A stretch of 64,000 nt of DNA from a virus (Duplodnaviria; Caudoviricetes): positions 1,923 to 65,922 of the IMG/VR virus record IMGVR_UViG_3300028025_003604. One strand, given 5' to 3'. Under the pieces are notes generated by a model. The model made no database searches. It worked only from the letters and a program-made list of their open reading frames with translations, and was not told the DNA's origin. Position numbers and translations under genes: made by a program. Shown piece by piece: positions 1-11,547 of this stretch (the first letter of the stretch is position 1; the number at the start of each line of letters is the position of its first letter).

Positions 1-290
1 AGAGAGGGTAAAAGACACCCTGAATTATCAATACAATTGAATACATATATCTGCTCCTAGATTCAGAGCCTTCTGAACAAGGCTTCGCCTAAAAGCACTT
101 GTATAAGAACAAGCACCCTTAAGCGAATATCTGCTCCCGAGTTCTTCACCCACGTCACGCAGCTCTAGTTACCTAGCAGGGAGTATGATCCCCGTCGCCC
201 CTCATGTCAGCTTAAACATTCCAGTCCTCTGGATAAACATAGCTCGGCCTTTTTTAACTGGTAGCCATCCCATGAGGTAGAACCAGAATG

Positions 291-298
291 CTAAATTA
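291..298 (-). promoter_or_regulatory. putative leftward Bacteroidota-type -7 promoter element (TAATTTAG)
   Basis: One mismatch to TAnnTTTG; points into the hairpin-rich noncoding region 1-280. Confidence 0.35.
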
Positions 299-325
299 CA
301 TCACCTATCTAATATAGGGTGCCAG

Positions 326-334
326 TTATCCACA
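326..334 (+). promoter_or_regulatory. DnaA box TTATCCACA
   Basis: Perfect match to the canonical 9-mer in intergenic DNA. Confidence 0.5.
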
Positions 335-385
335 GCATGGGAATAACACAATATAATAGAGAGAAAGCAGTTTTATATTTACATC

Positions 386-559
386 ATGAACGCCACAATA
401 GAATATATCGATCAGGAAGGAGCTATAATAGCTTCTGTGTATGGTTCAGTTGGCGAGTCGATATATCTGAACGAATCGGAACTAAGATGGATCTATGAGT
501 CTCTGAGGGCCCATTACAGCGATTGTGAAAAGACGGGGAAAACTGGACGTGAAAATTAA
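386..559 (+). CDS. small hypothetical protein (57 aa)
   Basis: Hand-translated ORF MNATIEYIDQEG...; below the ORF-track cutoff. Confidence 0.4.
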   Translation: MNATIEYIDQEGAIIASVYGSVGESIYLNESELRWIYESLRAHYSDCEKTGKTGREN

Positions 560-764
560 AGGGGGATGTGTGGTCGAGGAGGGTGGGTTATACCATATTT
601 CCGGTGGCCACCGACCCAAACGCGAACTCGAAAACGGCAACCGAGTGGGGGTCAAAAAGGCGATTTTGAATTCGAAAAAGGGCCTGCAAACTTACCCCGT
701 GTTAGTTGCCTGACAATCGGAAAACCAATGCAGGCTTACGTTTCAGCCATGGGGGTGTGGGAGT

Positions 765-784
765 GTGTCAGAAAATTGTGTCAG
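765..784 (+). repeat. tandem GTGTCAG-N6-GTGTCAG, same geometry as the repeat at 11391-11410
   Basis: GTGTCAG AAAATT GTGTCAG seen directly. Confidence 0.7.
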
Positions 785-886
785 TCAGGATAGAAAAAGG
801 AAACGAACTAGGGCCATTGCGGTATGGAATGTACGTACGTGTACGCGTAACCGCAGAATCCTAGTAACCCCCTTCCCCTTCCAACA

Positions 887-943
887 ATCCGTAAACCCTA
901 TCAATTACCATCCGTAAAACAACCCATAAATCAACCCGTAAAG
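887..943 (+). repeat. short direct repeats A(T/C)CC(G/A)TAAA x4 upstream of the wHTH gene
   Basis: ATCCGTAAA twice, ACCCATAAA, ACCCGTAAA. Confidence 0.5.
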
Positions 944-953
944 GAACCATCCG

Positions 954-1280
954 ATGAAGATAGAGAAGTACATATTCTGCCTGCCAAAAGCAATCCGGTT
1001 AGCATCCACCCGCACCGGTATATCTAGGCCATTGTACCCCACTGAACTCTTCCTCCTTTATGCCCTCAAGCGCCTACCTTCCCCGTGTACCCAATCACAC
1101 CTCCAAAGGTTCTGCGCTAACGTCTATAATCCGCTTACCCTTACCACCATCCACAAAGGTCTTATGTACCTCTTGGAGCAGGAACTCATCGATCGAAAAT
1201 TGAAGTCTTATTCTCTTTCCCCTCTTGGCAGAGAATACCTTTCACACATACGACAATATCTTATTAATGTCCGTCTCTAG
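954..1280 (+). CDS. winged-helix DNA-binding protein
   Basis: TIHKGLMYLLEQELI...YSLSPLGREYL is a typical wHTH recognition helix and wing. Confidence 0.6.
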   Translation: MKIEKYIFCLPKAIRLASTRTGISRPLYPTELFLLYALKRLPSPCTQSHLQRFCANVYNPLTLTTIHKGLMYLLEQELIDRKLKSYSLSPLGREYLSHIRQYLINVRL

Positions 1281-1390
1281 TCTCTTATATACTATGAGAA
1301 CTACTATACCCCCGAGCTGCCCACTTTTGGGCAATCAGGCCCGTTTTTAATCCTTTTCCTATTTCGTTTACCCAAGCACGTTAGTAAAAA

Positions 1391-1399
1391 TGTGGATAA
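1391..1399 (-). promoter_or_regulatory. DnaA box (TGTGGATAA on +)
   Basis: Perfect 9-mer ~75 bp upstream of the early promoter. Confidence 0.5.
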
Positions 1400-1472
1400 C
1401 TTTTTATCTCTTACTCTCCCAAGGGTTTGAGCCTGCTAAATCTGTTTAGCAGAGGCCTAATTTAAAAATTTA

Positions 1473-1505
1473 TTTGGAAGCGATTATCCATTGACGTTAG
1501 TTTTG
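1473..1505 (+). promoter_or_regulatory. Bacteroidota housekeeping-sigma early promoter
   Basis: -33 TTTG (1473-1476), 21-nt spacer, -7 TAGTTTTG (1498-1505). Confidence 0.75.
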
Positions 1506-1514
1506 TGTCTCAAT

Positions 1515-1546
1515 TCGGGGATGAAGTTTCCCGATGCTCTTTGAAA
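1515..1546 (+). promoter_or_regulatory. hairpin plus boxA-like antitermination element
   Basis: Hairpin TCGGGGA-TGAAGT-TTCCCGA followed by TGCTCTTTGAAA, resembling rrn boxA (TGCTCTTTAACA). Confidence 0.65.
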
Positions 1547-1694
1547 GGTTGGTTACTGAATTCTGCAAAACGGCAGTGGGAGTAAAGGTGCGACTAGCTT
1601 CGGCGTAAAGTCTAAATGGAACCACATAACAAAAGCCCTCGGGCAAGCCCTACCACACCATAGGCAATGAACAGGATTCGCCTACCACCTTTCG

Positions 1695-1705
1695 GTTCTT
1701 TGAAA
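1695..1705 (+). promoter_or_regulatory. second boxA-like element GTTCTTTGAAA
   Basis: Near-identical to the first copy; follows a stem closed by AAAGGTG/CACCTTT. Confidence 0.6.
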
Positions 1706-1935
1706 TTATCGGCGCGAAAGTTTTACATGCGATGCTCTTCACCGGAGCTAACGATGGACATCGGCCCTGCCCCTTACACGGGAGCAACCCACAAACAAGC
1801 AACACCCCGCTAACCACGGCCTAGTCACTTGCTACCCATCTTACCCCTTACATGTAACACGAGTAACCCACCCATCGCCTTCAGGTCTGATTTATCGTCC
1901 TGATGTTTAGCGTAGTCTTGAGGCTAATGGGTTGG

Positions 1936-1990
1936 ATGGTCTAGCGGTAATAACTCCCGCTACTGATGAGACGCAGAACGTCGAAACCAT
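1936..1990 (+). ncRNA. hammerhead ribozyme HH1 (type III)
   Basis: ATGGTC^TAGCGG-loop-CCGCTA CTGATGA GACG-CAGAA-CGTC GAAA CCAT; full core, three stems, GUC site at 1939-1941. Confidence 0.9.
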
Positions 1991-2001
1991 AATCATACAT
2001 C

Positions 2002-2175
2002 ATGAAAAACTTTATTTCAATCATCAAATTTTACTTATTAATCGCCTTGCTTAACCCATTCACCCTTGCCGGTTTAATTTCCGGCTGCCACGGGTTTACA
2101 TTCTTTGGCTTTGTGGTATCTGCCCTTGCTTGTAGTGTCTTCTTCCTAGGTGGAGGAGTTAAAGCGTTCAAATAA
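2002..2175 (+). CDS. small membrane protein (57 aa)
   Basis: Hand-translated MKNFISIIKFLLLIALLNPFTLAG...; two hydrophobic segments; lies between HH1 and HH2. Confidence 0.7.
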   Translation: MKNFISIIKFYLLIALLNPFTLAGLISGCHGFTFFGFVVSALACSVFFLGGGVKAFK

Positions 2176-2195
2176 TTCCCCCGAGCTGCTCACAA

Positions 2196-2247
2196 GATTA
2201 ACTGATGAGGGTTTAATACCCGAAACATCCTTCGGGATGTCTTAATC
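2196..2247 (+). ncRNA. hammerhead ribozyme HH2 (type I)
   Basis: GATTAA CTGATGA GGGT-TTAAT-ACCC GAAA CATCC-TTCG-GGATG TC^ TTAATC; cleavage after 2241. Confidence 0.95.
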
Positions 2248-2260
2248 AAAAAACACCACC

Positions 2261-2428
2261 ATGAAAGTTGAACTAAAAGAGAGAGAAGTATACGGAAAAG
2301 TGCTTCTGTACCCTAAAAACATTAACGCCTGCATTTTTGCTGATTTAATTGGCAAAAAGACATTCGACCAACTAGACCTCTTCCACATACAACAACTAGG
2401 ATACGAGGTTGAAATCATTAAACTATAA
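2261..2428 (+). CDS. small hypothetical phage protein (55 aa)
   Basis: Hand-translated MKVELKEREVYGKVLLYP...KTF...LGYEVEIIKL; A-rich leader. Confidence 0.75.
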   Translation: MKVELKEREVYGKVLLYPKNINACIFADLIGKKTFDQLDLFHIQQLGYEVEIIKL

Positions 2429-2438
2429 AAGCACTAAC

Positions 2439-2645
2439 ATGTACGCAAAATTATCAATGGTGATTGCATCACACCTAAGCGATGCGCAGCACGACTTTGA
2501 ATCAGGTAATGATAAGCACGGGCACTACCGCTTAAACTTCATCAAATTGCTAGTACTTCAAAACCAAAGTTTAGATAAAGAGGTCAATGAAGAGTATCTG
2601 TGGAAGGTATGGAAAGAGTGCGAAGTTGGGGCTCCAAAAGATTAA
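2439..2645 (+). CDS. hypothetical protein
   Basis: ORF 2409..2645, likely start MYAKLS at 2439; GAT-TAA end forms HH3 stem I. Confidence 0.75.
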   Translation: MYAKLSMVIASHLSDAQHDFESGNDKHGHYRLNFIKLLVLQNQSLDKEVNEEYLWKVWKECEVGAPKD

Positions 2646-2691
2646 CTGATGAGGATTCAATATCCGAAACCTGCTCCGGCAGGTCTTAATC
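2640..2691 (+). ncRNA. hammerhead ribozyme HH3 (type I)
   Basis: GATTAA CTGATGA GGAT-TCAAT-ATCC GAAA CCTGC-TCCG-GCAGG TC^ TTAATC; cleavage after 2685. Confidence 0.95.
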
Positions 2692-2705
2692 AAAAAAATT
2701 TTACC

Positions 2706-3044
2706 ATGGAAACCTTACAAATCAAAAAAATTACCGGCCTAACTGAACTTGAGAAAAAAGTATTAACTGCGCTAGTTGATGGCATGTATGCAGAATGGGG
2801 ATTCAGCGATGTTGGAGCTACCGACCTTTCTGAATCTACCGGCATACCAAATAAGTCTATTCGCGGCGTAATTGGTTCGCTAGTTAAGAAGGGTCTAGTT
2901 TATGTGGATGACCGCACTGACATGTGTGACTACCGCAGCAATGACCCTGCATGGGAGCCCATCATATACCTGCAAAACGATGCCGAAGCATTGGTACCTA
3001 ATTGGCAAGAGCAGATAGGCTTCAAATCTGTTATCGAAGATTAA
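2706..3044 (+). CDS. winged-helix DNA-binding protein
   Basis: Start METLQ at 2706; LTELEKKVL...DLSESTGIPNKSIRGVIGSLVKKGLV HTH pattern. Confidence 0.7.
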   Translation: METLQIKKITGLTELEKKVLTALVDGMYAEWGFSDVGATDLSESTGIPNKSIRGVIGSLVKKGLVYVDDRTDMCDYRSNDPAWEPIIYLQNDAEALVPNWQEQIGFKSVIED

Positions 3045-3088
3045 CTGATGAGACTTAATTAGTCGAAACGCCTTCGGGCGTCTTAATC
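3039..3088 (+). ncRNA. hammerhead ribozyme HH4 (type I)
   Basis: GATTAA CTGATGA GACT-TAATT-AGTC GAAA CGCC-TTCG-GGCG TC^ TTAATC; cleavage after 3082. Confidence 0.95.
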
Positions 3089-3101
3089 AAAATCCAATCC
3101 C

Positions 3102-3338
3102 ATGAATGTTATTTTAGTCTCTCGAGACGGCATACTAGATACGCCGGTACTCGTGAAGCAGAACACCACGGCAGAAGCCACCTTTGAATCCATTGTTCGC
3201 GACCTCCTAGGTGAAGACGCCGATGATATAAACTTCTTTTGCGATACTGCCATCGATAAGGTTAACAACTACCTCAAGCCTTCCGGTATCACCATCTCTT
3301 GGTTTGTCGATATTGACGTAAACAACTATAAAAACTAA
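3102..3338 (+). CDS. hypothetical protein
   Basis: ORF with A/C-rich leader directly after HH4. Confidence 0.75.
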   Translation: MNVILVSRDGILDTPVLVKQNTTAEATFESIVRDLLGEDADDINFFCDTAIDKVNNYLKPSGITISWFVDIDVNNYKN

Positions 3339-3341
3339 ATC

Positions 3342-3413
3342 ATGAAAAGCACAACTACCGCTATCATCATTGTCATTGTCTTCTTGTTAATCACCCTAGC
3401 AGATAACATATGA
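3342..3413 (+). CDS. 23-aa hydrophobic peptide
   Basis: MKSTTTAIIIVIVFLLITLADNI; ATGA overlap with the next ORF. Confidence 0.45.
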   Translation: MKSTTTAIIIVIVFLLITLADNI

Positions 3414-3574
3414 GAAAAGTATATTTTTTCAGCTATCAACTAGCTGATGGGAACGAAATACTCTGCGCTATTAAGACTTGCATATATCCTGAACGGACCA
3501 AAATATGGAAGCGCCTCTTAACCCTTGTTATTAACAGAGAGGACGTAGTAAGTATTAAGTACTCCCTAGAATAG
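3410..3574 (+). CDS. small hypothetical protein (54 aa)
   Basis: Hand-translated MRKVYFFSYQLADG...; fills the gap. Confidence 0.55.
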   Translation: MRKVYFFSYQLADGNEILCAIKTCIYPERTKIWKRLLTLVINREDVVSIKYSLE

Positions 3575-3585
3575 TTTACCCCCGA

Positions 3586-3629
3586 ACTGCCCCCATACCG
3601 ATGGCATCCGGTTCGTGACCGGAGGCAGT
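3586..3629 (+). ncRNA. mini tRNA-like element E1
   Basis: ACTGCC/GGCAGT closing stem, small hairpin CCAT-ACCG-ATGG, T-arm-like TCCGG-TTCGTGA-CCGGA. Confidence 0.65.
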
Positions 3630-3650
3630 CCTAATCAAAATCCAAACCAC

Positions 3651-3917
3651 ATGAACTATCAACAAATCAAAGCCGCTCAGAAGGAGCAGGGCTACGACCA
3701 ATGGCAACACATCATCAACACCGGCCATGCATGGAAGACGGAGGGCGCTATAGGACGCGAGGCAATGCACTTGCTAGAATCCGGCGCATGTATGCTTCCC
3801 AAGACTGCCTTCCAAGACTACTATGGCAACAGAATCCCATCACGTGACGACCTCAAGGCCGGAACTAAAGGGACCTTCCAAAACTCAGTAAACTATTACA
3901 CTAACAATGCTTGGTAA
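3651..3917 (+). CDS. hypothetical phage protein
   Basis: Start MNYQQ at 3651; GHAWKTEGAIGREAMHLLESGAC. Confidence 0.75.
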   Translation: MNYQQIKAAQKEQGYDQWQHIINTGHAWKTEGAIGREAMHLLESGACMLPKTAFQDYYGNRIPSRDDLKAGTKGTFQNSVNYYTNNAW

Positions 3918-3937
3918 CAGGCGCAACTATTAACACT

Positions 3938-4150
3938 ATGGAAAAAGTAACCTTCGAATTTCACCCCTACGTCCAAGACTCTTGGGATTGCATGATTTCA
4001 ATTCACAGAGGGAACGAACTTGTTGTTCAGTACAAATTTCAGGCGCACATTATTGATGGGGATATTCAATTTGACCTTGACCCAGAATATGCTTACAACC
4101 CGCCTCAACGATACCTATCATTTATCACTTCAACCTTATTAAATCGATAA
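3938..4150 (+). CDS. hypothetical protein
   Basis: Likely start MEKVTF. Confidence 0.65.
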   Translation: MEKVTFEFHPYVQDSWDCMISIHRGNELVVQYKFQAHIIDGDIQFDLDPEYAYNPPQRYLSFITSTLLNR

Positions 4151-4154
4151 CACT

Positions 4155-4382
4155 ATGAAAAAGAATCTAACCGCAGAAATGCTATTAAACGAATTGCTTG
4201 ATATGAAAGCAAAGCACTACGACCTGTCTAAAATTGAACTAAGCTATCGTTTCGACCCTGATAGTGACGTAGAACCAATCACCTATGTTGGTGAAGGTCT
4301 CTTCGATGCAGATACTAACAATGTTCTAGAAGAACTTGTATTTATGACCGATGCGTCTGAATACGAAGGAGAGGGAATATAA
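4155..4382 (+). CDS. acidic hypothetical protein
   Basis: ORF in operon context. Confidence 0.7.
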   Translation: MKKNLTAEMLLNELLDMKAKHYDLSKIELSYRFDPDSDVEPITYVGEGLFDADTNNVLEELVFMTDASEYEGEGI

Positions 4383-4391
4383 CCTCCACCC

Positions 4392-4432
4392 AACCTACCG
4401 CCATGGGCGTGGGCTTCGATGCCGAGTAGGTT
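4392..4432 (+). ncRNA. mini tRNA-like element E2 (imperfect)
   Basis: AACCTAC/GTAGGTT 7-bp stem, CGCC-ATG-GGCG hairpin, GGC-TTCGAT-GCC T-like hairpin. Confidence 0.55.
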
Positions 4433-4452
4433 CTCATCAAAACTCAAACAAC

Positions 4453-4614
4453 ATGCAACAACAAGCATCAAAAACACGTAGCCACTTTGTACTATCTCTA
4501 GCTAAAAGTTTCTTAAGAGCCGGAGCATGTGTATGGCTTTACCTAGGCGACTATCAAGTAGCTGCCGGACTATTCTTAATCGCCGAAACCTTCGGTATTC
4601 TAGAAGAACTTTAA
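4453..4614 (+). CDS. small membrane protein
   Basis: Start MQQQASK; HFVLSLAKSFLR...LIAETFGILEEL. Confidence 0.7.
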   Translation: MQQQASKTRSHFVLSLAKSFLRAGACVWLYLGDYQVAAGLFLIAETFGILEEL

Positions 4615-4624
4615 AAACTAAATC

Positions 4625-4819
4625 ATGAGAAACAGAATCCACCCACCAATCTACTCTGTCAAGCCTAGTGGCCTAATCATCAAGCGCTGCAATAAACTGA
4701 GCGCATATGCAAGAAGGATGGAAGTATTGAAGGAACTCGGACTCGACGTAAAGGAATACGCCAAAGAGTGCAAGCTAAGGTCCTTATTCAGGATGCAGGC
4801 TGCAGGTCTTCTAGCATAA
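4625..4819 (+). CDS. hypothetical protein
   Basis: ORF in operon context. Confidence 0.65.
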   Translation: MRNRIHPPIYSVKPSGLIIKRCNKLSAYARRMEVLKELGLDVKEYAKECKLRSLFRMQAAGLLA

Positions 4820-4826
4820 TACCCCC

Positions 4827-4872
4827 GAGCTAGTAGGAATGACCGAAACCGGAGCGATACCGGTACTAGCTC
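4827..4872 (+). ncRNA. mini tRNA-like element E3
   Basis: GAGCTAGT/ACTAGCTC stem, linker, ACCGG-AGCGATA-CCGGT 5-bp stem with 7-nt loop abutting the closing strand. Confidence 0.7.
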
Positions 4873-4890
4873 CTCATTAAAACCTCAAAC

Positions 4891-5112
4891 ATGGATTACC
4901 CTTTAGAACTAAAAAAATATCTAGCTAGTAAGATGGCTAAGGTAGATGTTGAATGCATGGGAGTAGACTTCCAACAAGCATATGAATACCATTTAGCCAA
5001 CGACCCATTTACCCTCCTTGAATATTGGGCCGAATACTTCGGAGCATTTGACGACATGGGCGAAAACTTATTCATGGAGCTAAGCCCTGAGTCTATAGCA
5101 AAAAATAAATAA
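4891..5112 (+). CDS. hypothetical protein
   Basis: ORF directly after E3. Confidence 0.7.
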   Translation: MDYPLELKKYLASKMAKVDVECMGVDFQQAYEYHLANDPFTLLEYWAEYFGAFDDMGENLFMELSPESIAKNK

Positions 5113-5124
5113 GATAGTCCCCCG

Positions 5125-5168
5125 AACTGCGAGGTATGACCGAAGTAGGAGCGAAACCTACCGCAGTT
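5125..5168 (+). ncRNA. mini tRNA-like element E4
   Basis: AACTGCG/CGCAGTT 7 bp, GGT-ATG-ACC, GTAGG-AGCGAAA-CCTAC. Confidence 0.7.
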
Positions 5169-5212
5169 GCTAATCAAAAACTCAAGAGCGAGAGTCCAAA
5201 CGCACCAAACCT

Positions 5213-5557
5213 ATGTCAACTACTACAACATCAACCTTACAGATGCACGTCTTCACATTAGACAACGCACTAAGCTACCTGAAAGAAAATTTACAAACAG
5301 ACACAGACTTCAGCGGTGATAATGGCCCTGAGTTTCTAGATGATGACGCCGATGGATACGATTCAAATTTAGAGTACTACCTAGAAATGTTTTGGTCGAA
5401 GCACAAGCCGAAAGATGAAAAGACCCTGAATAATTTCTTCTTAAAGTTTTTTCAGTTCATGCAGAAGAGGGACCAATACTATTCAAACATTGAGTTCGAC
5501 CTTAAGTTTATTGGCGACCAAATAGTTTTAGCAGTGATGATGGAATGTGATTGCTAG
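5213..5557 (+). CDS. acidic hypothetical protein
   Basis: ORF with AAACCTATG leader. Confidence 0.7.
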   Translation: MSTTTTSTLQMHVFTLDNALSYLKENLQTDTDFSGDNGPEFLDDDADGYDSNLEYYLEMFWSKHKPKDEKTLNNFFLKFFQFMQKRDQYYSNIEFDLKFIGDQIVLAVMMECDC

Positions 5558-5564
5558 AACCCCT

Positions 5565-5608
5565 GAGCCGAGAGAGTGGATAAGGCAGAGCGATACTGCC
5601 CTCGGTTC
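5565..5608 (+). ncRNA. mini tRNA-like element E5
   Basis: GAGCCGAG/CTCGGTTC, D-loop-like linker AGAGTGGATAA, GGCAG-AGCGATA-CTGCC. Confidence 0.7.
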
Positions 5609-5623
5609 CTAAATCCCAAACCT

Positions 5624-6169
5624 ATGAGCCTACAAGACGCGGTAATCACCGCAGAAAAAAATGGTGGAGTCTCTTACAACCTTCACCATGGGTACATGAA
5701 TCCTGAGACCGGATACATGGTATCCCTAGCAGGAAGAGAGAGGCAGTCGCCATCACTCACCTATCACAACGTCCTCGGTTTTGTAAACGACAACATTGAA
5801 GCATTCGAGCCCACAACCTTCTTAGGCCTATGGCAGGAAGAAGGGACGTGGATAATGGATGTGTCTTTATGCATCCCGACACTAGCGACTGCGCTGCGGG
5901 TTGCGGAATCAAATGGCCAACGTGCCATCTACGACAATGCTAACAAAAAATCTATATACCTAAACCCTAACCGCATGGAAGAGCTAATCGAACAAATCAA
6001 GCAGCATGACTTTTGGTACATGATGTCCGAAGACTCAAGAGTATTTGACCAAGGTAAAGAGACCCAGAAATCGATCGAAGAGGGGCTTAAAAATTACCCT
6101 AAAGAAGAGGTCCTGAATAATCTACCCGAACACCTTCACGAATTTATAAAATCTATCTATGGCGCATAA
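5624..6169 (+). CDS. two-domain early protein; N-terminal domain possibly SAM-lyase-like
   Basis: Start MSLQDA; GYMVS...GLW...DVS...A...Q.AIYD pattern; second domain begins at in-frame ATG 5975. Confidence 0.55.
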   Translation: MSLQDAVITAEKNGGVSYNLHHGYMNPETGYMVSLAGRERQSPSLTYHNVLGFVNDNIEAFEPTTFLGLWQEEGTWIMDVSLCIPTLATALRVAESNGQRAIYDNANKKSIYLNPNRMEELIEQIKQHDFWYMMSEDSRVFDQGKETQKSIEEGLKNYPKEEVLNNLPEHLHEFIKSIYGA

Positions 6170-6377
6170 ACTAACAGGCGTAGAGCTCTACAATAGCGAG
6201 CTCAAGCGCAAGACAAAAGTATACGACGTTGCAAACAAAAAACTAATCGCTGAATTCGAAAGCGTGTGGGCTGCCTCCAACTACACCGGAGTCAAATGTA
6301 GTTACATCACCCAGTGTATGAGTAAGAAGTACCGCTCACATACAAATCGCCTAGGCATAACAATCACCTTCAGATGA
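6159..6377 (+). CDS. stand-alone NUMOD1-like DNA-binding protein
   Basis: VYD...LIAEFESVWAASNYTGV...ITQC motif. Confidence 0.65.
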   Translation: MAHKLTGVELYNSELKRKTKVYDVANKKLIAEFESVWAASNYTGVKCSYITQCMSKKYRSHTNRLGITITFR

Positions 6378-6462
6378 TAACACTACTAATCGTTCCTATT
6401 GCACTTGCTATCCTTATTGGTAACAATGCACTTAGTCCTGAATCTAATTTAGACTAACCCCC

Positions 6463-6509
6463 GAACCGGAAACCTAACGAGGTTATGGTATTCGCTCTAC
6501 CTCCGGTTC
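6463..6509 (+). ncRNA. mini tRNA-like element E6
   Basis: GAACCGGA/TCCGGTTC, AACCT-AACG-AGGTT, GGTA-TTCGCTC-TACC. Confidence 0.6.
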
Positions 6510-6522
6510 CTAAACCTACTTT

Positions 6523-6624
6523 ATGAAAAAGTTTAATTGGACCTTCTTAATTGCATGGACAACTATCCTCACCATAACATACATGTTGTGGTCATTCATC
6601 TTTAAACTAATATCCTACATATGA
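6523..6624 (+). CDS. 33-aa membrane peptide
   Basis: MKKFNWTFLIAWTTILTITYMLWSFIFKLISYI; ATGA overlap with the next gene. Confidence 0.5.
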   Translation: MKKFNWTFLIAWTTILTITYMLWSFIFKLISYI

Positions 6625-6860
6625 AAAGTACATTTCAACAAGTGATGGATGCAATAAATAACGGCGAAAAATTCTCATGGAATTTTAACGGCCTTACTGC
6701 ATTCAGAAACACCGACAGGTTAGTTCATGAAATACCTAACCCAACCGAGGCGTCCATTGGATGGATACTTCAAGAGTTCTGCGTTAAAGCATTATACGAT
6801 GCTGATTTATTAATCTCCTTCGAGCCATCACCTGAAGGGTTAAAAATATATTACAAATGA
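6621..6860 (+). CDS. hypothetical protein
   Basis: ORF in operon context. Confidence 0.65.
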   Translation: MKSTFQQVMDAINNGEKFSWNFNGLTAFRNTDRLVHEIPNPTEASIGWILQEFCVKALYDADLLISFEPSPEGLKIYYK

Positions 6861-6956
6861 GAACTACCTACCCAACAGAAACCCTATCATTCAACGATTG
6901 GATTATCTACATCCATAAAGAAAACATCCGTATTAGAATTCAAAAACTAAACCACT

Positions 6957-7148
6957 ATGAACAAAATCTCGGCAGCAAAAAAAGTGTTTCACACTATCAA
7001 CGAAGAATTGGACAAGGTACTATTGGGGGAAGAAAGTTCCCGCCGATTGGTTGTGCAGAAATTGAAATTGATTAATGAGGAACTATCCGATGCAGTAATT
7101 GACCTATTGAAAAAAAATGTAACCTATGAACAAGAGCGAAGTATTTAA
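6957..7148 (+). CDS. hypothetical protein
   Basis: ORF with AAACCACTATG leader. Confidence 0.6.
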   Translation: MNKISAAKKVFHTINEELDKVLLGEESSRRLVVQKLKLINEELSDAVIDLLKKNVTYEQERSI

Positions 7149-7476
7149 TGGCCTATGTGAGTATGCAGTTGAAGTTACCGGTATCGATATAAGGTACGCC
7201 AAAGGAAGACGTGAAGAGTATGTAAGGCTCAGGGCCGCTATCATGGTTATCCTTATGAACTACTACGGAGTCACCACTACATTGGCCGGACACTTTTTTA
7301 ATCGCGACCACACCACGGCAGTACACCACAAAGCAAATCACCCATGGCGATATAAGTCCGACGATGAATACGCCTATCTGTATGATGAGTTGGTGAAGCA
7401 CGTTTTACTATGTAAAAGAAATCAAGTAGACCTAGATGTACAAGAGGTACTCGAGTACATTAAATTAATTGGTTAG
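7126..7476 (+). CDS. DnaA C-terminal (domain IV)-like HTH protein
   Basis: R...VRLRAAIM.IL...TTTLAGHFFNRDHTTAVH matches the DnaA RDHTTV signature. Confidence 0.75.
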   Translation: MNKSEVFNGLCEYAVEVTGIDIRYAKGRREEYVRLRAAIMVILMNYYGVTTTLAGHFFNRDHTTAVHHKANHPWRYKSDDEYAYLYDELVKHVLLCKRNQVDLDVQEVLEYIKLIG

Positions 7477-7482
7477 TGAATA

Positions 7483-7571
7483 ATGCGGGTAGCTTAATGG
7501 TCACAATGGAAGTGACCCTTGAGGGAGGAAAGCGCTTAAATGAGATGTGGGTTCGATTCCCATCCCGCGTT
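7483..7571 (+). ncRNA. aberrant tRNA-like RNA (expanded D-loop, stub anticodon arm)
   Basis: ATGCGGG/CCCGCGT acceptor, GCTT/AAGC D-stem, GTGGG-TTCGATT-CCCAT T-arm. Confidence 0.65.
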
Positions 7572-7797
7572 CATAAATATAAAAGTTGGCGAGGTGAGAT
7601 ACCTTGATTACACCTGAGCAGGATGGTGGCCAATGGATGCTGCTAGTTATTAAGCCTATAGGATGAAATACCCTTGTACCGATGCCTTGCGGTTGGGTTA
7701 GACAAAGTTTTCTTGCGTTGCGGGTTCTATTAGGCGTTTTTTCATATCCCGTTAAAGAAAGCAAAGGGGCTTATGGTTGTGCCAGAACAACCAACAT

Positions 7798-7891
7798 AGT
7801 CAGGTCGCTCAAATTTTGGGAGCACATGCATCATTGTGTGTTCAATACAAGTCTGCTTAGGCTTGTGCAGGTTCGAATCCTGTCCTGACTA
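7798..7891 (+). ncRNA. tRNA-like RNA with non-canonical anticodon loop and long variable arm
   Basis: AGTCAGG/CCTGACT acceptor, GCTC/GAGC D-stem, GCAGG-TTCGAAT-CCTGT T-arm. Confidence 0.65.
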
Positions 7892-7976
7892 CAAACTTAT
7901 GCACAGAGTTATTCATGTAAGTATTTATACTGAATGTAACGCTCTTGCATAAACGTAGATTTGTAAAAAACAACCT

Positions 7977-8201
7977 ATGAACCAAACAACAAACCATTCG
8001 TCTGAAACGCTTAATATAACATGTGCTTATCCAAAAACTCAAACTGAATTTTCGTATGTAAGCGCTTCTCACCATAGTGTAATCGTTATAGTAAGCTCAC
8101 TATATCAAAAGCTATCAGACAAAGAAAAGTTGGAAATGCTTTCTAAATTAAATGATTGGACTTACAATGAAGCACTTAAAATTTTTAACCAAACCCAATA
8201 A
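7977..8201 (+). CDS. hypothetical protein
   Basis: ORF with AACCTATG leader. Confidence 0.6.
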   Translation: MNQTTNHSSETLNITCAYPKTQTEFSYVSASHHSVIVIVSSLYQKLSDKEKLEMLSKLNDWTYNEALKIFNQTQ

Positions 8202-8204
8202 TAT

Positions 8205-8453
8205 ATGGAACCACAAACCATCGAGCAACCATGCTCCCAAGAGCCTATCGCCTCAGTAGAGTATACTCCAACAAAGCAGGAGGCATTACGGCAGTATGAA
8301 ATTAGAATAGAATTCCTATCAAGAGGATGTATTGTTCGTGTAGGCTGTAAGTCTATACCTTTTGAGAGTGTAGATGCAGCAATGAAATGCTTAAGCGAGT
8401 ATGTAAAAGACCCTATCACCAAAGAAAAAGAGTGGGTGAAAATCTTAAATTAA
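8205..8453 (+). CDS. hypothetical phage protein
   Basis: IEFLSRGCIVRVGCKSIPF. Confidence 0.7.
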   Translation: MEPQTIEQPCSQEPIASVEYTPTKQEALRQYEIRIEFLSRGCIVRVGCKSIPFESVDAAMKCLSEYVKDPITKEKEWVKILN

Positions 8454-8460
8454 AGATGTT

Positions 8461-8591
8461 AGTCAGGTGGCGGAATTGATAGACGCTAAGTTAAGTTTAC
8501 ACACGAGATGCGACCTCATTAAAAGCTATAACGATGAGTTTAAATTGGTTCAGAGAACCACCTCTTGCAGGTTCGAATCCTGCCCTGACTA
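8461..8591 (+). ncRNA. tRNA-Leu-like frame with a ~80-nt insert replacing the anticodon/variable domain
   Basis: AGTCAGG TG GCGGAATTGATAGACGC ... GCAGG-TTCGAAT-CCTGC CCTGACT A. Confidence 0.65.
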
Positions 8592-8604
8592 CAAAAAGTA
8601 GCGT

Positions 8605-9225
8605 ATGAAATTAAATTCCAACATTCCTAGCTTTAAGGCGCTAGTAAAAAAATCCTACTTCACGAAGGACGCCAACGATAGTAACGAATACTACAACGTG
8701 TATGTCTTCGGCCTTCAGTCAGTATCCGGTAAGATAGTCACGTTCCATGTACTAACCGACTCCGGTATGCTAAGGAGCAGGGTGCCATTGTCTGAGATAT
8801 ATACCAAGGTACCAACGGGTGACATACCATTTAACTACAAGCAGCTATGGGATTGCTTTAGTGAGAATGTATCCGTAGTTGAGTATGACTTCCTTGCATT
8901 TCACAGAGCTCAAGTAGTACTGAGAGATGGCAGTAAAGTATGGGCCACGTATGTATTCACTATTGATTGGTTCAACAACCCATATAGTGATGAACCTTCC
9001 GACTATAAGTGCGGCCACGTGCTAGAATCGGATGATGGCTACTTGTTATGTATGCCGAACAACAGAATCTTTTGGAAGGATTCTAATTGGGTAACGAAAA
9101 GTTTACCGGAGGACCTGAAGCAGTTCAAGGTAGACACCGACCTTCCTTCTGTTGAAAACCAATCGGACCGATGGGTGGCAGAGGATACCAATTCATTTTA
9201 TTACGACATAATACAAGAGCTATGA
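8605..9225 (+). CDS. conserved hypothetical phage protein
   Basis: LWDCFS...YVFTIDW...PNNRIFWKD motifs recalled from aquatic phages; function unknown. Confidence 0.7.
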   Translation: MKLNSNIPSFKALVKKSYFTKDANDSNEYYNVYVFGLQSVSGKIVTFHVLTDSGMLRSRVPLSEIYTKVPTGDIPFNYKQLWDCFSENVSVVEYDFLAFHRAQVVLRDGSKVWATYVFTIDWFNNPYSDEPSDYKCGHVLESDDGYLLCMPNNRIFWKDSNWVTKSLPEDLKQFKVDTDLPSVENQSDRWVAEDTNSFYYDIIQEL

Positions 9226-9569
9226 AAACCGCAATGCAAGAATTAATCTTTCACATAGCATATATGGAAAGAAGAAAGTATCAAGATGAGCAAACACAGA
9301 TACTTGGAGGTATGAATGATTGTATTATGTATGATGCCATCGTTATTCAAAATAGAATCATTGAAGAATTAACTAAAGAGTATTCTGAATATCTTGAAAA
9401 AGAAAAGGAGCAGATAGTAAATGATTTTGAAAATGGTTACAAGGCCTGCGATTTAGATGAAGCATTGGAGATAAATAAAACAATGTTTAGCGGAGAAAGG
9501 TATTACGAACAAACCTATAAACAATACGGCTTAGATAATGAGGCTAGACAAATTTTAAATAACCTATAA
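9222..9569 (+). CDS. hypothetical protein (MKTAMQEL / EKEKEQI small-gene family)
   Basis: Likely start at 9222; AT-rich. Confidence 0.65.
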   Translation: MKTAMQELIFHIAYMERRKYQDEQTQILGGMNDCIMYDAIVIQNRIIEELTKEYSEYLEKEKEQIVNDFENGYKACDLDEALEINKTMFSGERYYEQTYKQYGLDNEARQILNNL

Positions 9570-9583
9570 CCAAAAAAATAACT

Positions 9584-9775
9584 ATGAACACTATGACCGT
9601 AATACTAGGATTAGGTACATTATTGGTTGGCTTTGTATTAGGATTTACTTTGCACTTTTTCATATCAAAAATGGAAGATGCAAAAACTTATACTAATGGT
9701 TTTAGAGATGGGATGCAAGCCGAGTTTAAAATAATTTATGAAATAATATTAAAATCAAATAACCAAAACAAATAA
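9584..9775 (+). CDS. small membrane protein
   Basis: N-terminal hydrophobic helix. Confidence 0.6.
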   Translation: MNTMTVILGLGTLLVGFVLGFTLHFFISKMEDAKTYTNGFRDGMQAEFKIIYEIILKSNNQNK

Positions 9776-9925
9776 CCAATGAAAAAAACAAAAATAACAT
9801 TTCAATTCCTTACATATGACCAACGAAGAGCTAAAATTATTGCTAATCTAAATAGTATAAAAGTAGACCCTATTAAAAGCCAAGTAACAACAACAGGTGT
9901 ATGGACTCCAAAAACTAATTAACCT

Positions 9926-10162
9926 ATGAAACTATATACAGAAGAACAAGTAAGAAAAGCTATTAGAGTAGCAGGACAATTAGTATGGGAAGATGAAGAA
10001 ATATTTGCTTCATTGCCATCAATAGAACTACCAAGTGATGAGGAGATAGAGAATAATGCTTATACAGATAGAATAGTAGATGATTGGAAGCATGAACAAC
10101 AAATTGGGTTTGAAATAGGTGCTAAATGGATGAAAGAACAAATACTTAACCAAAAAAAATAA
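9926..10162 (+). CDS. hypothetical protein (KLYTEEQV / ELPSDEEI family)
   Basis: AACCTATG leader; modular small-protein motifs. Confidence 0.65.
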   Translation: MKLYTEEQVRKAIRVAGQLVWEDEEIFASLPSIELPSDEEIENNAYTDRIVDDWKHEQQIGFEIGAKWMKEQILNQKK

Positions 10163-10165
10163 CCT

Positions 10166-10426
10166 ATGACACCACAAGAAAAAGCAACAGAATTAGTAGA
10201 AAAATTTAAGCCTTATGTAAATGGATATGTTGGTAGCTCAATGTTAACTAACACAGAATATCCAGAATCAATTTTAAGAAAGGCTAAAGAATGTGCAAGA
10301 ATAGTAGCAAACGAGATGATTGACAGATTAACATGGCATACAGGTGCAAGTGATTTAGGCAATACAATTATTGCTGAAGATATTGAATATTGGTATGAAG
10401 TGTTACAATCAATCAAATATAACTAA
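10166..10426 (+). CDS. hypothetical protein (MTPQEKA.EL family)
   Basis: AACCTATG leader; AKECA...YWYEV motif. Confidence 0.65.
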   Translation: MTPQEKATELVEKFKPYVNGYVGSSMLTNTEYPESILRKAKECARIVANEMIDRLTWHTGASDLGNTIIAEDIEYWYEVLQSIKYN

Positions 10427-10438
10427 ACCCAATAACCT

Positions 10439-10780
10439 ATGAAAATAGTAACAAACGAAAATGGACTATCTCTTGAAATAGTAAGAGACTATGTGCAAGC
10501 AGATGGGGAAGACTACTCACCAATGCTCGGAGGGGATGACTCAAATCCATCTTGGGAAGAGTATTTGGATGACTATAAAGAAGAGTTTAAGCCACATATT
10601 CTCCTACTGAAAAAATCGATCGAGGAAAATGGCCTTGTAGGATATACAGGGCAAGATGCCGATGACCTTTATTTTAAATTTTCAGATGGCAATGTTATGG
10701 GCTTTAGTTGGAGAGGATGGGGTGACCTAATGCAAGCCATTGTAAACAAGAATGAAGGCTATATGGCCTATTATATGTAA
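10439..10780 (+). CDS. hypothetical protein
   Basis: FSWRGWGDLMQA...YMAYY. Confidence 0.7.
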   Translation: MKIVTNENGLSLEIVRDYVQADGEDYSPMLGGDDSNPSWEEYLDDYKEEFKPHILLLKKSIEENGLVGYTGQDADDLYFKFSDGNVMGFSWRGWGDLMQAIVNKNEGYMAYYM

Positions 10781-10794
10781 CCTAAATCTACCCT

Positions 10795-10989
10795 ATGTCA
10801 GACATCACCAAATGCAGCGGGCAAGGTTGCCCGTTTAAAGAAAGTTGCTACCGATTTACTGCTCCCGCAGGAGATTTACAATCCTACTTCGTAGACCCTC
10901 CATTGGATGGGGACAATTGCGATATGTATTGGGGTCCCAATGGGGAGTCCATATGGAACCAATTGAAAGACGTGGTGGGTGAATCATAA
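10795..10989 (+). CDS. small Cys-rich protein
   Basis: MSDITKC...CPFKESCYRF...C. Confidence 0.7.
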   Translation: MSDITKCSGQGCPFKESCYRFTAPAGDLQSYFVDPPLDGDNCDMYWGPNGESIWNQLKDVVGES

Positions 10990-11138
10990 TGTGCGTTATA
11001 ATGCACATTGGGATGTGCTTTTATCCCTTATAATGCACATTAAGGGGTGCATCACAAATAGAAATATATTTCCAATTGTTTATTTTTTACCCGTAATTGG
11101 TAGTATAACTACCAACATTTAGAAATATACTTCCAATT
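10985..11138. repeat. cluster of short palindromes and dif-like cores
   Basis: AATGTGCGTTATAATGCACATT, TTATAATGCACATT x2, TAGAAATATAyTTCCAATT x2, TTGGTAGT-ATA-ACTACCAA. Confidence 0.65.
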
Positions 11139-11253
11139 TTGGCGCCATTCTGTTACGTGGTTTGGCGTATCTTACCCTTACTTTGTGACACGCAGAGTTG
11201 CTTTTGATTTACAAAAGCGCACTAGCACAACCCGTTTTCGACCCTGAAAATGC

Positions 11254-11547
11254 GTGTCAGAATTGTTATCAATATTGTTAATATTGTTTGCATTCATCAG
11301 TAAATCAACTATATTTATGGGGTCGATGAGTAATCCGGTATCATGCAGCAAGTTATTTTGCCTATGATTATCAATTAATTAACACCGTTTGTGTCAGAAT
11401 TCCGTGTCAGTTTTGTGCGGAATTTGAGCAAAAGGCTTCATTAAAACGTAGTAAAATTAACTATTGCCAAAGATTCTGACACACATTTTTTCAGCCCCTC
11501 CTGATGTGTTTTCCAGAGGTTGTGCATAACCGGACTATCCCATCGAC
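11254..11547. other. putative attP / integrase arm-site region
   Basis: GTGTCAG repeats at 11254, 11391, 11404 and inverted at 11476-11482; outer imperfect inverted repeat 11322-11347 / 11523-11547; immediately upstream of the integrase. Confidence 0.55.

What the first reader, a model, noticed from the sequence alone, without database searches (positions are those of the whole stretch)
1936..3088. Four intact hammerhead ribozymes punctuate the phage early operon
Seen: one type III hammerhead (1936-1990) and three type I hammerheads (2196-2247, 2640-2691, 3039-3088). Each has the full CUGAUGA...GAAA core, a GUC cleavage triplet and fully paired stems. Stems II and III differ in sequence between copies but keep their pairing, which indicates selection on structure. 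All are intergenic and on the coding strand. HH2-4 would cut at 2241, 2685 and 3082, leaving 19, 20 and 19 nt of A/C-rich leader before the next ATG (2261, 2706, 3102). Established: hammerheads leave 5'-OH and 2',3'-cyclic phosphate ends, and 5'-OH RNA is a poor substrate for 5'-monophosphate-dependent decay. Inference: the phage self-cleaves its earliest polycistronic mRNA into stabilised units with standardised leaders, a protein-free analogue of T7 RNase III processing.
Basis: partly seen in the sequence, partly recalled or inferred. Interest (0 to 1): 0.95.

Follow-up and report, generated by a model that had tools for sequence, protein, structure and literature searches.

The report
Hammerhead ribozymes punctuating a phage operon
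Four textbook self-cutting hammerhead RNAs really do sit between small genes of this freshwater phage, and they belong to a large phage family placed tightly between one gene's stop codon and the next gene's ribosome-landing site, but such clusters have been known in phages since 2011.

Summary
Observation confirmed. An independent descriptor finds exactly four hammerheads in the 65.9-kb genome, at the stated coordinates and cut sites. In 200 dinucleotide shuffles the mean was 0.1 hits and the maximum 2. Rfam reaches gathering score for none. It lists HH1 and HH4 below threshold and does not list HH2 or HH3.

HH2-4 belong to a compact type I subfamily found in at least 120 IMG/VR stretches. 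Its covariation is strong: 14 of 16 pairs change on both sides, 0 of 500 shuffles reach this. Placement is tight. The upstream stop codon lies within -9..+8 of the ribozyme start in 158 of 181 elements, and the next ATG lies 18-29 nt after the cut in 150 of 181. Random positions give 12% and 6.5%.

The leaders carry the Bacteroidota initiation signature. A type III element heads the array in 8 of 10 related loci.

Self-cleaving mRNA punctuation is the best reading. Stabilisation through 5'-OH ends and "earliest transcript" are not shown. Clustered phage hammerheads with this proposed role were published in 2011. This scan has noted them on other DNA many times. No cleavage evidence was obtained here.

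The parts
1473..1505 (+). Promoter-like site of Bacteroidota type (TTTG-N21-TAgtTTTG), downstream of a terminator-like hairpin at 1328-1343. Candidate start of the hammerhead operon.
   Evidence: Pattern match: 3 matches in the window against 2.33 expected, so this is weak on its own. The consensus was recalled from memory. Terminator-like site.
1695..1941 (+). Conserved non-coding leader RNA whose 3' end would be made by the HH1 cut.
   Evidence: Homology to relative L032 begins at about 1697 and runs to HH1. Indels of 27 nt and 1 nt occur within it, and mean column identity over the 363-column alignment is 84%. RNA-library contigs from two studies both begin at 1695 (X19 1695-1922; X20 1695-1844), while DNA contigs continue across that point. 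This is a weak hint only.
1936..1990 (+). HH1, type III hammerhead. Stem III AUGGU/ACCAU, GUC cut after 1941, stem I hairpin of 6 bp, core CUGAUGA, stem II GACG/CGUC, GAAA. It ends 11 nt before the ATG at 2002, so the ribozyme body stays on the downstream mRNA.
   Evidence: RF00008 26.4 bits, E=0.0064, below the gathering score. Covariation in type III relatives.
2002..2175 (+). First gene, 57 aa, hydrophobic, no family match.
   Evidence: ORF. 84% identical homologue in L032. No PHROG match.
2178..2190 (+). CCCCCGAGCUGC motif in the spacer before HH2. The same 5' motif opens the tRNA-like junction elements further downstream.
   Evidence: Also conserved before the matching hammerhead of L032.
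2196..2247 (+). HH2, type I hammerhead. Stem I GAUUAA/UUAAUC, stem II GGGU/ACCC, stem III 6 bp with a UUCG loop. Cut after 2241, leaving a 19-nt leader to the ATG at 2261.
   Evidence: 73.7 bits to the family model R1, which includes this sequence. Not listed by Rfam.
2261..2645 (+). Two-gene block (2261-2428, 55 aa; 2439-2645, 68 aa) with no ribozyme between the genes. The stop codon of the second gene lies in stem I of HH3.
   Evidence: The second gene has a 46%-identical homologue in L032, which there sits directly after the type III hammerhead.
2640..2691 (+). HH3, type I hammerhead. Cut after 2685, leaving a 20-nt leader to the ATG at 2706. TAA 2643-2645 in stem I ends the upstream gene.
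   Evidence: 72.1 bits. Not listed by Rfam.
2706..3044 (+). Gene of 112 aa. Its stop codon TAA 3042-3044 lies in stem I of HH4.
   Evidence: phrog_18303, E=2.9e-8, function unknown.
3039..3088 (+). HH4, type I hammerhead. Cut after 3082, leaving a 19-nt leader to the ATG at 3102.
   Evidence: 70.9 bits. RF00163 23.5 bits, E=0.0088, below the gathering score.
3102..3338 (+). Gene of 78 aa after HH4.
   Evidence: 59%-identical homologue in L032, where no hammerhead precedes it.
3586..6509 (+). Context: six ~45-nt tRNA-like minihelices (closing stem, small hairpin, T-arm-like hairpin) at later junctions of the same operon, followed by the same kind of A-rich leader.
   Evidence: No Rfam family at E<=1 in 3400-9000 other than one tRNA hit. 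First noted as e1-6245585.

Best explanation
The four elements are active, cis-acting hammerhead ribozymes. They cut a long + strand phage transcript at gene junctions as it is made.

HH1 (type III) cuts at its own 5' edge. This severs a conserved ~245-nt leader RNA and leaves the folded ribozyme at the 5' end of the first message, 11 nt before its ATG.

HH2-4 (type I) cut at their 3' edge. The ribozyme body therefore stays on the upstream message as a structured 3' end carrying a 2',3'-cyclic phosphate. That message keeps its stop codon, which in HH3 and HH4 is the TAA inside stem I.

Stem I is only six weak base pairs, so the downstream piece should fall away. It would then be a 5'-OH message whose 19-20-nt G-poor leader is essentially a bare Bacteroidota-type translation initiation region.

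The outcome is one- or two-gene messages that can be translated and degraded independently.

Shown here: the motifs, selection on their structure, their tight placement, and the family-wide architecture. Inferred: cleavage itself, product release, and any effect on stability or translation.
For: 1. All core positions and all three stems are canonical in the four elements. None is expected by chance: 0.1 per shuffled genome, maximum 2 in 200 shuffles.

2. A pairing test that does not presuppose pairing. The IMG/VR pattern fixed only stem I TTAA, the core and GTC, and gave 122 unique matches. Of these, 114 have at least 3 further contiguous stem II pairs (10.6 expected with shuffled interiors) and 118 have at least 3 further stem III pairs (8.6 expected).

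3. Covariation in type I: 113 sequences, 14 of 16 pairs changed on both sides, score 0.641 against 0.130 for shuffles (0 of 500 reach it) and 0.05-0.10 when the partners are slid. In type III: 12 of 15 pairs changed on both sides, 0 of 500 shuffles reach the score.

4. Core variation occurs only where hammerheads tolerate it. N7 is U, C, A or G, and H17 is C or A. C3, U4, G5, A6, G8, A9, A13 and A14 are invariant in all 113 rows; G12 is in a column at least 90% conserved.

5. Placement. In 158 of 181 unique type I elements the upstream stop codon lies at -9..+8 of the ribozyme start: 56 use the TAA in stem I and 24 use a TGA of the core. In 150 of 181 the next ATG lies 18-29 nt after the cut. 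Random positions in the same loci give 541 of 4600 and 297 of 4600.

6. Orientation. No locus has hits on both strands (0 of 120). 54 of 120 loci hold two or more hits, up to 6, and one bacterial-MAG contig holds 8 in 5.8 kb.

7. The leaders show A at -13/-12/-11 (0.73/0.79/0.72), A at -3 (0.81) and 6% G. This is the signature reported for Flavobacterium johnsoniae.

8. The stem I duplex is predicted at only -2.1 kcal/mol at 37 C and -3.8 at 20 C. The 3' products are predicted to be unstructured around the start codon.

9. In the same operon and in close relatives, the equivalent junction slot is filled by tRNA-like minihelices, some with canonical UUCGAGU or UUCGAUU T-loops. What the two element types would share is endonucleolytic RNA cutting, if the minihelices are tRNA-processing substrates (inferred).

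10. No terminator-like site lies on the + strand between 1535 and 6570.

11. Precedent: clustered prophage hammerheads cleave in vitro, and in A. tumefaciens also in vivo.
Against: - No cleavage data exist for these sequences.
- Rfam gathering scores are not reached by any element, and HH2 and HH3 are not even listed at E<=10.
- With 30-nt flanks, the predicted MFE of HH1 and HH2 is not the hammerhead fold and HH3 loses stem I. HH4 alone misfolds. Folding would therefore have to be co-transcriptional.
- No stem I/loop II tertiary contact is demonstrated. There is only a conserved U.A.. loop II and an A/A flank at the seventh position (109 of 122).
- The equal helix-to-ATG spacing of type III and type I elements argues that the selected variable is distance from structure to start codon, not the length of the cleaved leader.
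- Two genes (2261-2428 and 2439-2645) have no ribozyme between them. Homologous genes in L032 sit at different positions relative to hammerheads. So cutting is not needed gene by gene.
- The type I and type III sets used for searches were chosen by a descriptor that demands pairing. Their percentage paired is therefore circular, although the number of pair types is not.
Confidence: 0.72

Rival explanations
1. The hammerheads are mainly portable junction modules. Their near-identical sequences act as short homologies at which related phages exchange gene cassettes, and RNA cutting is secondary or incidental.
For: - blastn of window 1-12000 against the 120 loci gives mostly 50-65-nt hits that cover only the hammerheads.
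- Contigs of other freshwater metagenomes lose or gain homology within a few nt of hammerhead borders: a joint 1989->2636 and loose ends at 2194, 2695, 2697 and 3037.
- Gene order relative to the hammerheads differs between the window and L032.
- Stem I is almost invariant (GGUUAA in 119 and GAUUAA in 27 of 202 type I hits), more than pairing alone requires.
Against: - A recombination linker does not need a catalytic core, three covarying stems, H17 not being G, or a fixed strand and position between stop codon and initiation region.
- The search pattern itself fixed TTAA, which inflates the apparent stem I conservation.
- The two roles are not exclusive.
Confidence: 0.12
2. Cleavage is gated by translation. 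A ribosome terminating at the stop codon inside or just before stem I unfolds the ribozyme. Cutting, and the release of the next gene's initiation region, would then depend on ribosome traffic on the upstream gene.
For: - The stop codon lies in stem I or in the core in 80 of 181 elements (offsets +3 and +7) and within 9 nt upstream in 71 more.
- In the window this holds for HH3 and HH4.
- The 3' strand of stem I forms positions -19..-14 of the next gene's leader, so pairing and cutting change its accessibility.
- A related design was noted on other DNA by this scan (e1-3481804).
Against: - Tight packing in a compact genome explains the overlap equally well.
- HH2 sits 20 nt after its stop codon and HH1 follows no gene.
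- Nothing here measures a dependence on translation.
Confidence: 0.12
3. Pairs of hammerheads excise RNAs with 5'-OH and 2',3'-cyclic phosphate ends, which a host RtcB-type ligase then closes into circles.
For: Fragments between successive cuts would carry exactly the ends RtcB joins (established chemistry, recalled). Perreault et al. raised this possibility.
Against: - Perreault et al. report that they could not detect circular or spliced products.
- The phage genome has no RtcB match (0 candidates).
- The excised pieces are ordinary protein-coding messages with start and stop codons.
Confidence: 0.03
4. The motifs are chance matches or decayed relics without activity.
For: Rfam gathering scores are not reached. 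Alternative MFE folds appear once flanks are included.
Against: - Four perfect motifs against 0.1 expected.
- Family-wide covariation.
- Invariant core.
- Fixed placement.
Confidence: 0.01

Closest known systems
Clustered hammerhead ribozymes flanking genes in prophages (Perreault et al. 2011, PMC3088659; passages read)
   Same: Several canonical hammerheads of mixed types, all in the same orientation, flank single genes or short blocks in phage DNA. The authors proposed processing of long phage transcripts into single-gene or operon-length mRNAs. Their tandem arrangements cleaved in vitro, and the A. tumefaciens set also cleaved in vivo.
   Different: The present elements belong to a compact subfamily: a 6-bp G-N-UUAA stem I flanked by A/A, a 4-bp stem II and a 5-nt U.A.. 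loop. Rfam's type I model scores it below its cut-off. The elements are wedged between the stop codon and a Bacteroidota-type initiation region, and a type III element heads the array. I could not see that paper's figures or Dataset S1 (supplements are closed), so members of this subfamily may already be in its alignments.
HHphage of haloviruses HF1/HF2 (described in PMC3088659)
   Same: A hammerhead lies 13 nt upstream of the start codon of the first ORF of an early polycistronic transcript. The mapped 5' end of that transcript lies within three nucleotides of the cut site. HH1 here ends 11 nt before the first ATG of the array.
   Different: HHphage is a structural variant in an archaeal virus and needs high Mg2+. 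HH1 has a fully canonical core and is followed by three type I elements.
RNase III processing of phage T7 early mRNA (recalled, not checked here)
   Same: A long early phage transcript is cut at structured intergenic sites into individual messages that retain a hairpin at the 3' end.
   Different: T7 uses a host protein enzyme acting on double-stranded sites and leaves 5'-phosphate and 3'-OH ends. Here the RNA would cut itself and leave 5'-OH and 2',3'-cyclic phosphate ends. The resemblance is in how it works, not in membership.
tRNA punctuation of mitochondrial transcripts and t-elements (recalled; named as closest known by earlier scan note e1-5955508)
   Same: Structured RNA elements at gene borders mark where a polycistronic transcript is cut. 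In this operon, tRNA-like minihelices occupy later junctions in the same slot as the hammerheads.
   Different: Those systems depend on RNase P and RNase Z. The four elements of this finding are self-cleaving.
Synthetic ribozyme insulators such as RiboJ (recalled, not checked here)
   Same: A type III-style hammerhead placed before a coding region removes the variable upstream RNA and leaves a defined 5' end, as HH1 would.
   Different: RiboJ is engineered. Here the arrangement is natural and recurs in 8 of 10 related loci.

Membership tests
Hammerhead ribozyme (Rfam clan CL00010) | Catalytic core C3 U4 G5 A6 N7 G8 A9 ... G12 A13 A14, pair A15.1-U16.1, and H17 (not G) at the cut site | tested here: met
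   All four elements read CUGAUGA ... GAAA ... GUC with the A15.1-U16.1 pair.
Hammerhead ribozyme (Rfam clan CL00010) | Three helices around the core, with pairs directly adjacent to it | tested here: met
   Stems I/II/III are 6/4/5, 6/4/6, 6/4/6 and 6/4/5 bp. The hammerhead fold is the MFE for HH1-3 alone and for HH4 with flanks. With flanks, HH1 and HH2 prefer other folds.
Hammerhead ribozyme (Rfam clan CL00010) | Helices supported by compensatory changes among relatives | tested here: met
   Type I: 14 of 16 pairs, 0 of 500 shuffles. Pattern-only set: 114 and 118 of 122. Type III: 12 of 15 pairs. HH1 compared with L032.
Hammerhead ribozyme (Rfam clan CL00010) | Score at or above the Rfam gathering cut-off (RF00008 48.5 bits; RF00163 34 bits) | tested here: not met
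   No hammerhead at gathering score. HH1 26.4 bits, HH4 23.5 bits, HH2 and HH3 not listed. This is a property of the Rfam models rather than of the ribozyme definition.
Hammerhead ribozyme (Rfam clan CL00010) | Tertiary contact between stem I and loop II that gives fast cleavage at physiological Mg2+ | tested here: inconclusive
   Loop II keeps U and A at fixed places, and an unpaired A/A flanks the 6-bp stem I in 109 of 122 elements. No contact could be modelled.
Hammerhead ribozyme (Rfam clan CL00010) | Site-specific self-cleavage giving 5'-OH and 2',3'-cyclic phosphate ends | not testable with these tools
   Only assembled contigs of two RNA libraries were available. They cannot show RNA ends.
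Clustered phage hammerheads that flank genes (Perreault et al. 2011) | Several hammerheads close together, in the same orientation as the genes, flanking single genes or short gene blocks in phage DNA | tested here: met
   Four elements lie within 1.15 kb on the coding strand, bounding blocks of 1, 2 and 1 genes. The record encodes portal, terminase, tail fibre and integrase proteins.
Compact GNUUAA-stem-I type I subfamily defined here (model R1) | 6-bp stem I G-N-U-U-A-A/U-U-A-A-N-C with A/A flank, 4-bp stem II, 5-nt loop II, ATG 18-29 nt after the cut | tested here: met
   HH2-4 score 70.9-73.7 bits, but they were part of the model. Their features are read directly.

The most novel reading that the evidence does not exclude
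Freshwater Bacteroidota phages may run a two-part RNA punctuation system in their small-gene operons. Self-cleaving hammerheads and tRNA-like minihelices (cut by host tRNA-processing enzymes) would be interchangeable junction modules.

Each module is packed between a stop codon and an SD-less initiation region. A type III hammerhead releases a conserved leader RNA at the head of the array.

Cutting, followed by release of the weak 6-bp stem I, would unmask the next gene's initiation region. The near-identical modules would also serve as homology for swapping gene cassettes between phages.
Probability: 0.3. Interest if true: 0.75.

Novelty: new member of a known kind. Interest (0 to 1): 0.5.

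Why it matters
What bacterial and phage hammerheads are for is still described as unresolved in the 2019 review (PMC6765202).

This locus and its family give a concrete handle on that question. There are at least 181 unique elements whose position is fixed to within a few nucleotides between a stop codon and a defined, SD-less initiation region. The hosts belong to a phylum where initiation is known to depend on unstructured, A-rich leaders.

That makes one hypothesis directly testable with a simple reporter in Flavobacterium johnsoniae: that cutting frees the initiation region and uncouples neighbouring genes.

The practical lesson is that Rfam's hammerhead models miss this abundant phage subfamily at their gathering scores.

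Tried and rejected
Rfam at gathering score found no hammerhead. In E-value mode it found only two of the four, both below cut-off.

GenBank phages (INPHARED): no match to window 1500-5500 by megablast, and none to the 76-nt HH2 region by blastn. No cultured relative was identified.

Sequencing runs:
- Only two RNA libraries hold a small share of the stretch, and only as contigs.
- Their six pieces (1695-1922, 1695-1844, 2262-2412, 2398-2428, 3108-3258, 3349-3579) span none of the four cut sites.
- With about 790 nt covered out of 3001, I estimate roughly a one-in-three chance of that happening at random. Contigs cannot show RNA ends, and DNA may be present in RNA libraries. This is no evidence for or against cleavage.
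- Parts without RNA cover are likewise no evidence.

The sigma-70 promoter scan gave fewer sites than shuffles (24 against 29.8), so it is uninformative for this host type.

The Bacteroidota promoter pattern gave 3 matches against 2.33 expected. The site at 1473-1505 is plausible by position only.

RtcB (PF01139) is absent from the phage genome. The circular-RNA idea was not pursued further.

One of the three Mucilaginibacter chromosomal hits (L135) showed a single hammerhead without an adjacent ATG or array. It supports the host phylum but gives no operon model. L126 and L134 were only scanned for hammerheads (one each), not inspected.

The MAG hits labelled Aliivibrio, Gammaproteobacteria, Burkholderiales and Streptomycetaceae are on contigs of 0.9-12 kb. 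I treat them as probably binned phage DNA, not as host evidence.

From the type III/II list I dropped two rows. L009 is an alternative parse overlapping a type I element with a 4-bp stem I. L117 is a type II hit with 3-bp stems and is probably chance.

A few of the 214 descriptor hits are alternative parses of one element (for example L017 and L023).

Papers:
- Searches found no paper that describes this subfamily or its placement against the initiation region.
- The library is partial, and the supplements of PMC3088659, which hold its alignments, are closed.
Full report
**What is there.** The window is positions 1923-65922 of a 65,922-nt IMG/VR virus record. Its 127-nt terminal repeat looks like an assembly overlap of a circular or permuted genome.

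It is a tailed phage. Portal, large terminase, tail fibre and an SU10-type capsid protein lie on the minus strand. Integrase, Erf, YqaJ exonuclease, primase-helicase and dNMP kinase lie on the plus strand.

The finding lies at the head of the plus-strand block, among five small genes. Three of them have homologues in a related contig and one matches a PHROG of unknown function.

**Checking the observation.** Reading the sequence shows the four elements as described.

I wrote a descriptor that asks for the hammerhead core, the A15.1-U16.1 pair, H17, and stems pairing directly next to the core. I ran it on both strands of the whole genome.
- 200 dinucleotide shuffles give on average 0.1 hits and never more than 2.

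HH1-3 fold into the hammerhead as their minimum-energy structure when taken alone, and HH4 does so with flanks. With 30-nt flanks HH1 and HH2 are predicted to prefer other folds. Correct folding would therefore have to happen during transcription.

Rfam is less helpful than expected.
- No hammerhead reaches a gathering score.
- In E-value mode HH1 scores 26.4 bits to RF00008 and HH4 scores 23.5 bits to RF00163, both below cut-off.
- HH2 and HH3 are not listed at all.

One detail needs correcting. HH3 and HH4 overlap the TAA stop codons of the upstream genes, which lie in stem I. The elements are therefore not all strictly intergenic.

**Relatives.** I scanned IMG/VR with a pattern that fixes only four stem I bases, the core and GTC.

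My descriptor finds 214 hammerheads in those stretches: 202 type I, 11 type III and 1 type II. They are never on both strands of one locus. 54 of 120 loci hold two or more.

Because the pattern does not require stems II and III to pair, it allows an unbiased test. Of 122 unique matches:
- 114 have at least three more stem II pairs, against 10.6 expected from shuffled interiors;
- 118 have at least three more stem III pairs, against 8.6 expected.

On an alignment of 113 type I elements, 14 of 16 pairs change on both sides. The covariation score is 0.641, against 0.130 for shuffles (0 of 500 reach it) and 0.05-0.10 for slid partners.

The core varies only at N7 and H17, the positions hammerheads tolerate.

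The subfamily is compact and distinctive:
- stem I is six pairs, G-N-UUAA;
- an unpaired A flanks each side in 109 of 122;
- stem II is four pairs with a five-base loop that keeps a U and an A.

A type III hammerhead like HH1 occurs in ten of the loci. In eight of them it lies upstream of the type I elements, as in the window. Its stems covary too: 12 of 15 pairs.

Against the closest relative, L032, the ~245 nt before HH1 are highly conserved, interrupted by a 27-nt and a 1-nt indel, so they are non-coding. Stems I and II of HH1 are replaced there but still pair.

**Placement.** Among 181 unique type I elements:
- The upstream gene's stop codon lies within -9..+8 of the ribozyme's first base in 158.
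- 56 use the TAA in stem I and 24 use a TGA of the core.
- The next ATG lies 18-29 nt after the cut in 150.

Random positions in the same loci give 11.8% and 6.5%.

The leaders are 56% A and 6% G, with A peaks at -13 to -11 and at -3. Few contain Shine-Dalgarno-like words (20 of 154). Only 3 of 40 larger window genes have one. This is the initiation signature that Baez et al. report for Flavobacterium johnsoniae (abstract and section 15 read).

The only isolate genomes holding the pattern are three Mucilaginibacter, which are Bacteroidota. The runs that hold the phage are mostly freshwater metagenomes.

The type III elements cut about 60 nt upstream of the ATG, yet they end 11-24 nt (mode 13) before it. 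That is the same helix-to-ATG spacing as the type I elements (19-22 nt minus the 6 nt of stem I). So the conserved quantity is the distance from the last helix to the start codon. The ribozyme is packed against the initiation region, and the constant leader length of type I products follows from that.

**Mechanism.** The topology makes sense for message processing.
- A type I element cuts at its 3' edge. The upstream message keeps its stop codon and gains a folded 3' end.
- The downstream message starts with the six G-free bases of stem I followed by the A-tract.
- Stem I is predicted at only -2.1 kcal/mol at 37 C, and the downstream products are predicted unstructured around the start codon.
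- The type III element at the head instead stays on the first message and cuts off the leader RNA.
- No terminator-like site interrupts the plus strand between 1535 and 6570.

A further argument comes from the neighbours. Later junctions of the same operon carry tRNA-like minihelices followed by the same kind of leader. Close relatives (L032, L098, L010) have these too, some with canonical T-loops. In L098 the order is type III, type I, then minihelices, as here. The property the two element types would share is that they specify an RNA cut, assuming the minihelices are tRNA-processing substrates, which was not tested here.

All of this is inference. I obtained no evidence of cleavage. The RNA-library contigs are too few, and they cannot show ends.

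**Other readings.** Homology between related phages often starts or stops at hammerhead borders, and gene order relative to the ribozymes differs between the window and L032. The modules may therefore also act as recombination joints. The stop codons inside the ribozyme allow a translation-gated reading. Neither excludes processing. Circularisation is unlikely. Chance is excluded.

**Comparison with what is known.** Perreault et al. 2011 described clustered hammerheads flanking genes in prophages. They showed cleavage of ~2-kb transcripts in vitro and of the A. tumefaciens set in vivo. They proposed processing into single-gene or operon-length mRNAs, and they noted a halovirus hammerhead 13 nt before the first ORF of an early transcript. 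The 2019 review still calls the purpose unresolved. This scan has noted phage hammerheads thousands of times, including mini-tRNAs that swap with hammerheads and hammerheads locked to stop codons.

The finding is therefore a new member of a known kind. It is a clean, well-supported example of an abundant subfamily that Rfam under-detects, with a placement rule that makes the function testable. It is not a new principle.

Noticed in passing
window 3586-6509 (elements near 3586, 4392, 4827, 5125, 5565, 6463): Six ~45-nt tRNA-like minihelices sit at later gene junctions. Each has a closing stem, a small hairpin and a T-arm-like hairpin. Most are preceded by CCCCCGA and followed by the same A-rich leader as the hammerheads. 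Relatives L032, L098 and L010 have them too, some with canonical UUCGAGU or UUCGAUU T-loops. No Rfam family matches.
   Followed up: partly
window 1695-1941: A conserved non-coding leader ends at the HH1 cut. Homology to L032 starts at about 1697, with 27-nt and 1-nt indels. Contigs from two RNA libraries both begin at 1695 while DNA contigs run on, and the X20 contig carries 10 unmatched letters before 1695. This could be a processed or primary 5' end of a stable RNA.
   Followed up: partly
window 1309-1321 and 2178-2190: The motif CCCCCGAGCUGC, which opens the minihelices, also stands alone before HH2 and after the gene that ends at 1280. The copy before HH2 is conserved in L032. It looks like a half-element left where a hammerhead replaced a minihelix.
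   Followed up: partly
window 1989-3037, compared with metagenome contigs of runs X2 and X3: Homology to contigs of other freshwater metagenomes breaks within a few nt of hammerhead borders: a joint 1989->2636 and loose ends at 2194, 2695, 2697 and 3037. This suggests the gene cassettes between the ribozymes are exchanged among related phages.
   Followed up: partly
window 7483-7571 and 7798-7892: Rfam calls a tRNA (35 bits) with a 28-nt insertion in the D-loop region and a very short anticodon region. ARAGORN instead reports an odd tRNA at 7798-7892 with a two-base anticodon. Neither looks like a standard decoding tRNA.
   Followed up: no
window 1328-1343 and 1473-1505: A terminator-like hairpin with a T-run is followed by a Bacteroidota-type -33/-7 promoter match. 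This would make the hammerhead array its own transcription unit.
   Followed up: partly
window 24557-33151 (minus strand): A 2864-aa ORF has no Pfam family and only one PHROG of unknown function, over residues 757-926.
   Followed up: no
genome ends (G000:C1 1-127 and 65796-65922): The 'direct terminal repeat' is exactly 127 nt, which I recall as a common assembler k-mer size. The record is probably a circular assembly, not a genome with physical terminal repeats. 'Left end' and 'earliest' therefore cannot be read from the coordinates.
   Followed up: yes
L127 (5.8-kb contig binned in a bacterial MAG) and L034: Arrays of 8 type I hammerheads in 5.8 kb and 6 in about 5 kb. Four in the window is not exceptional for this family.
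   Followed up: no
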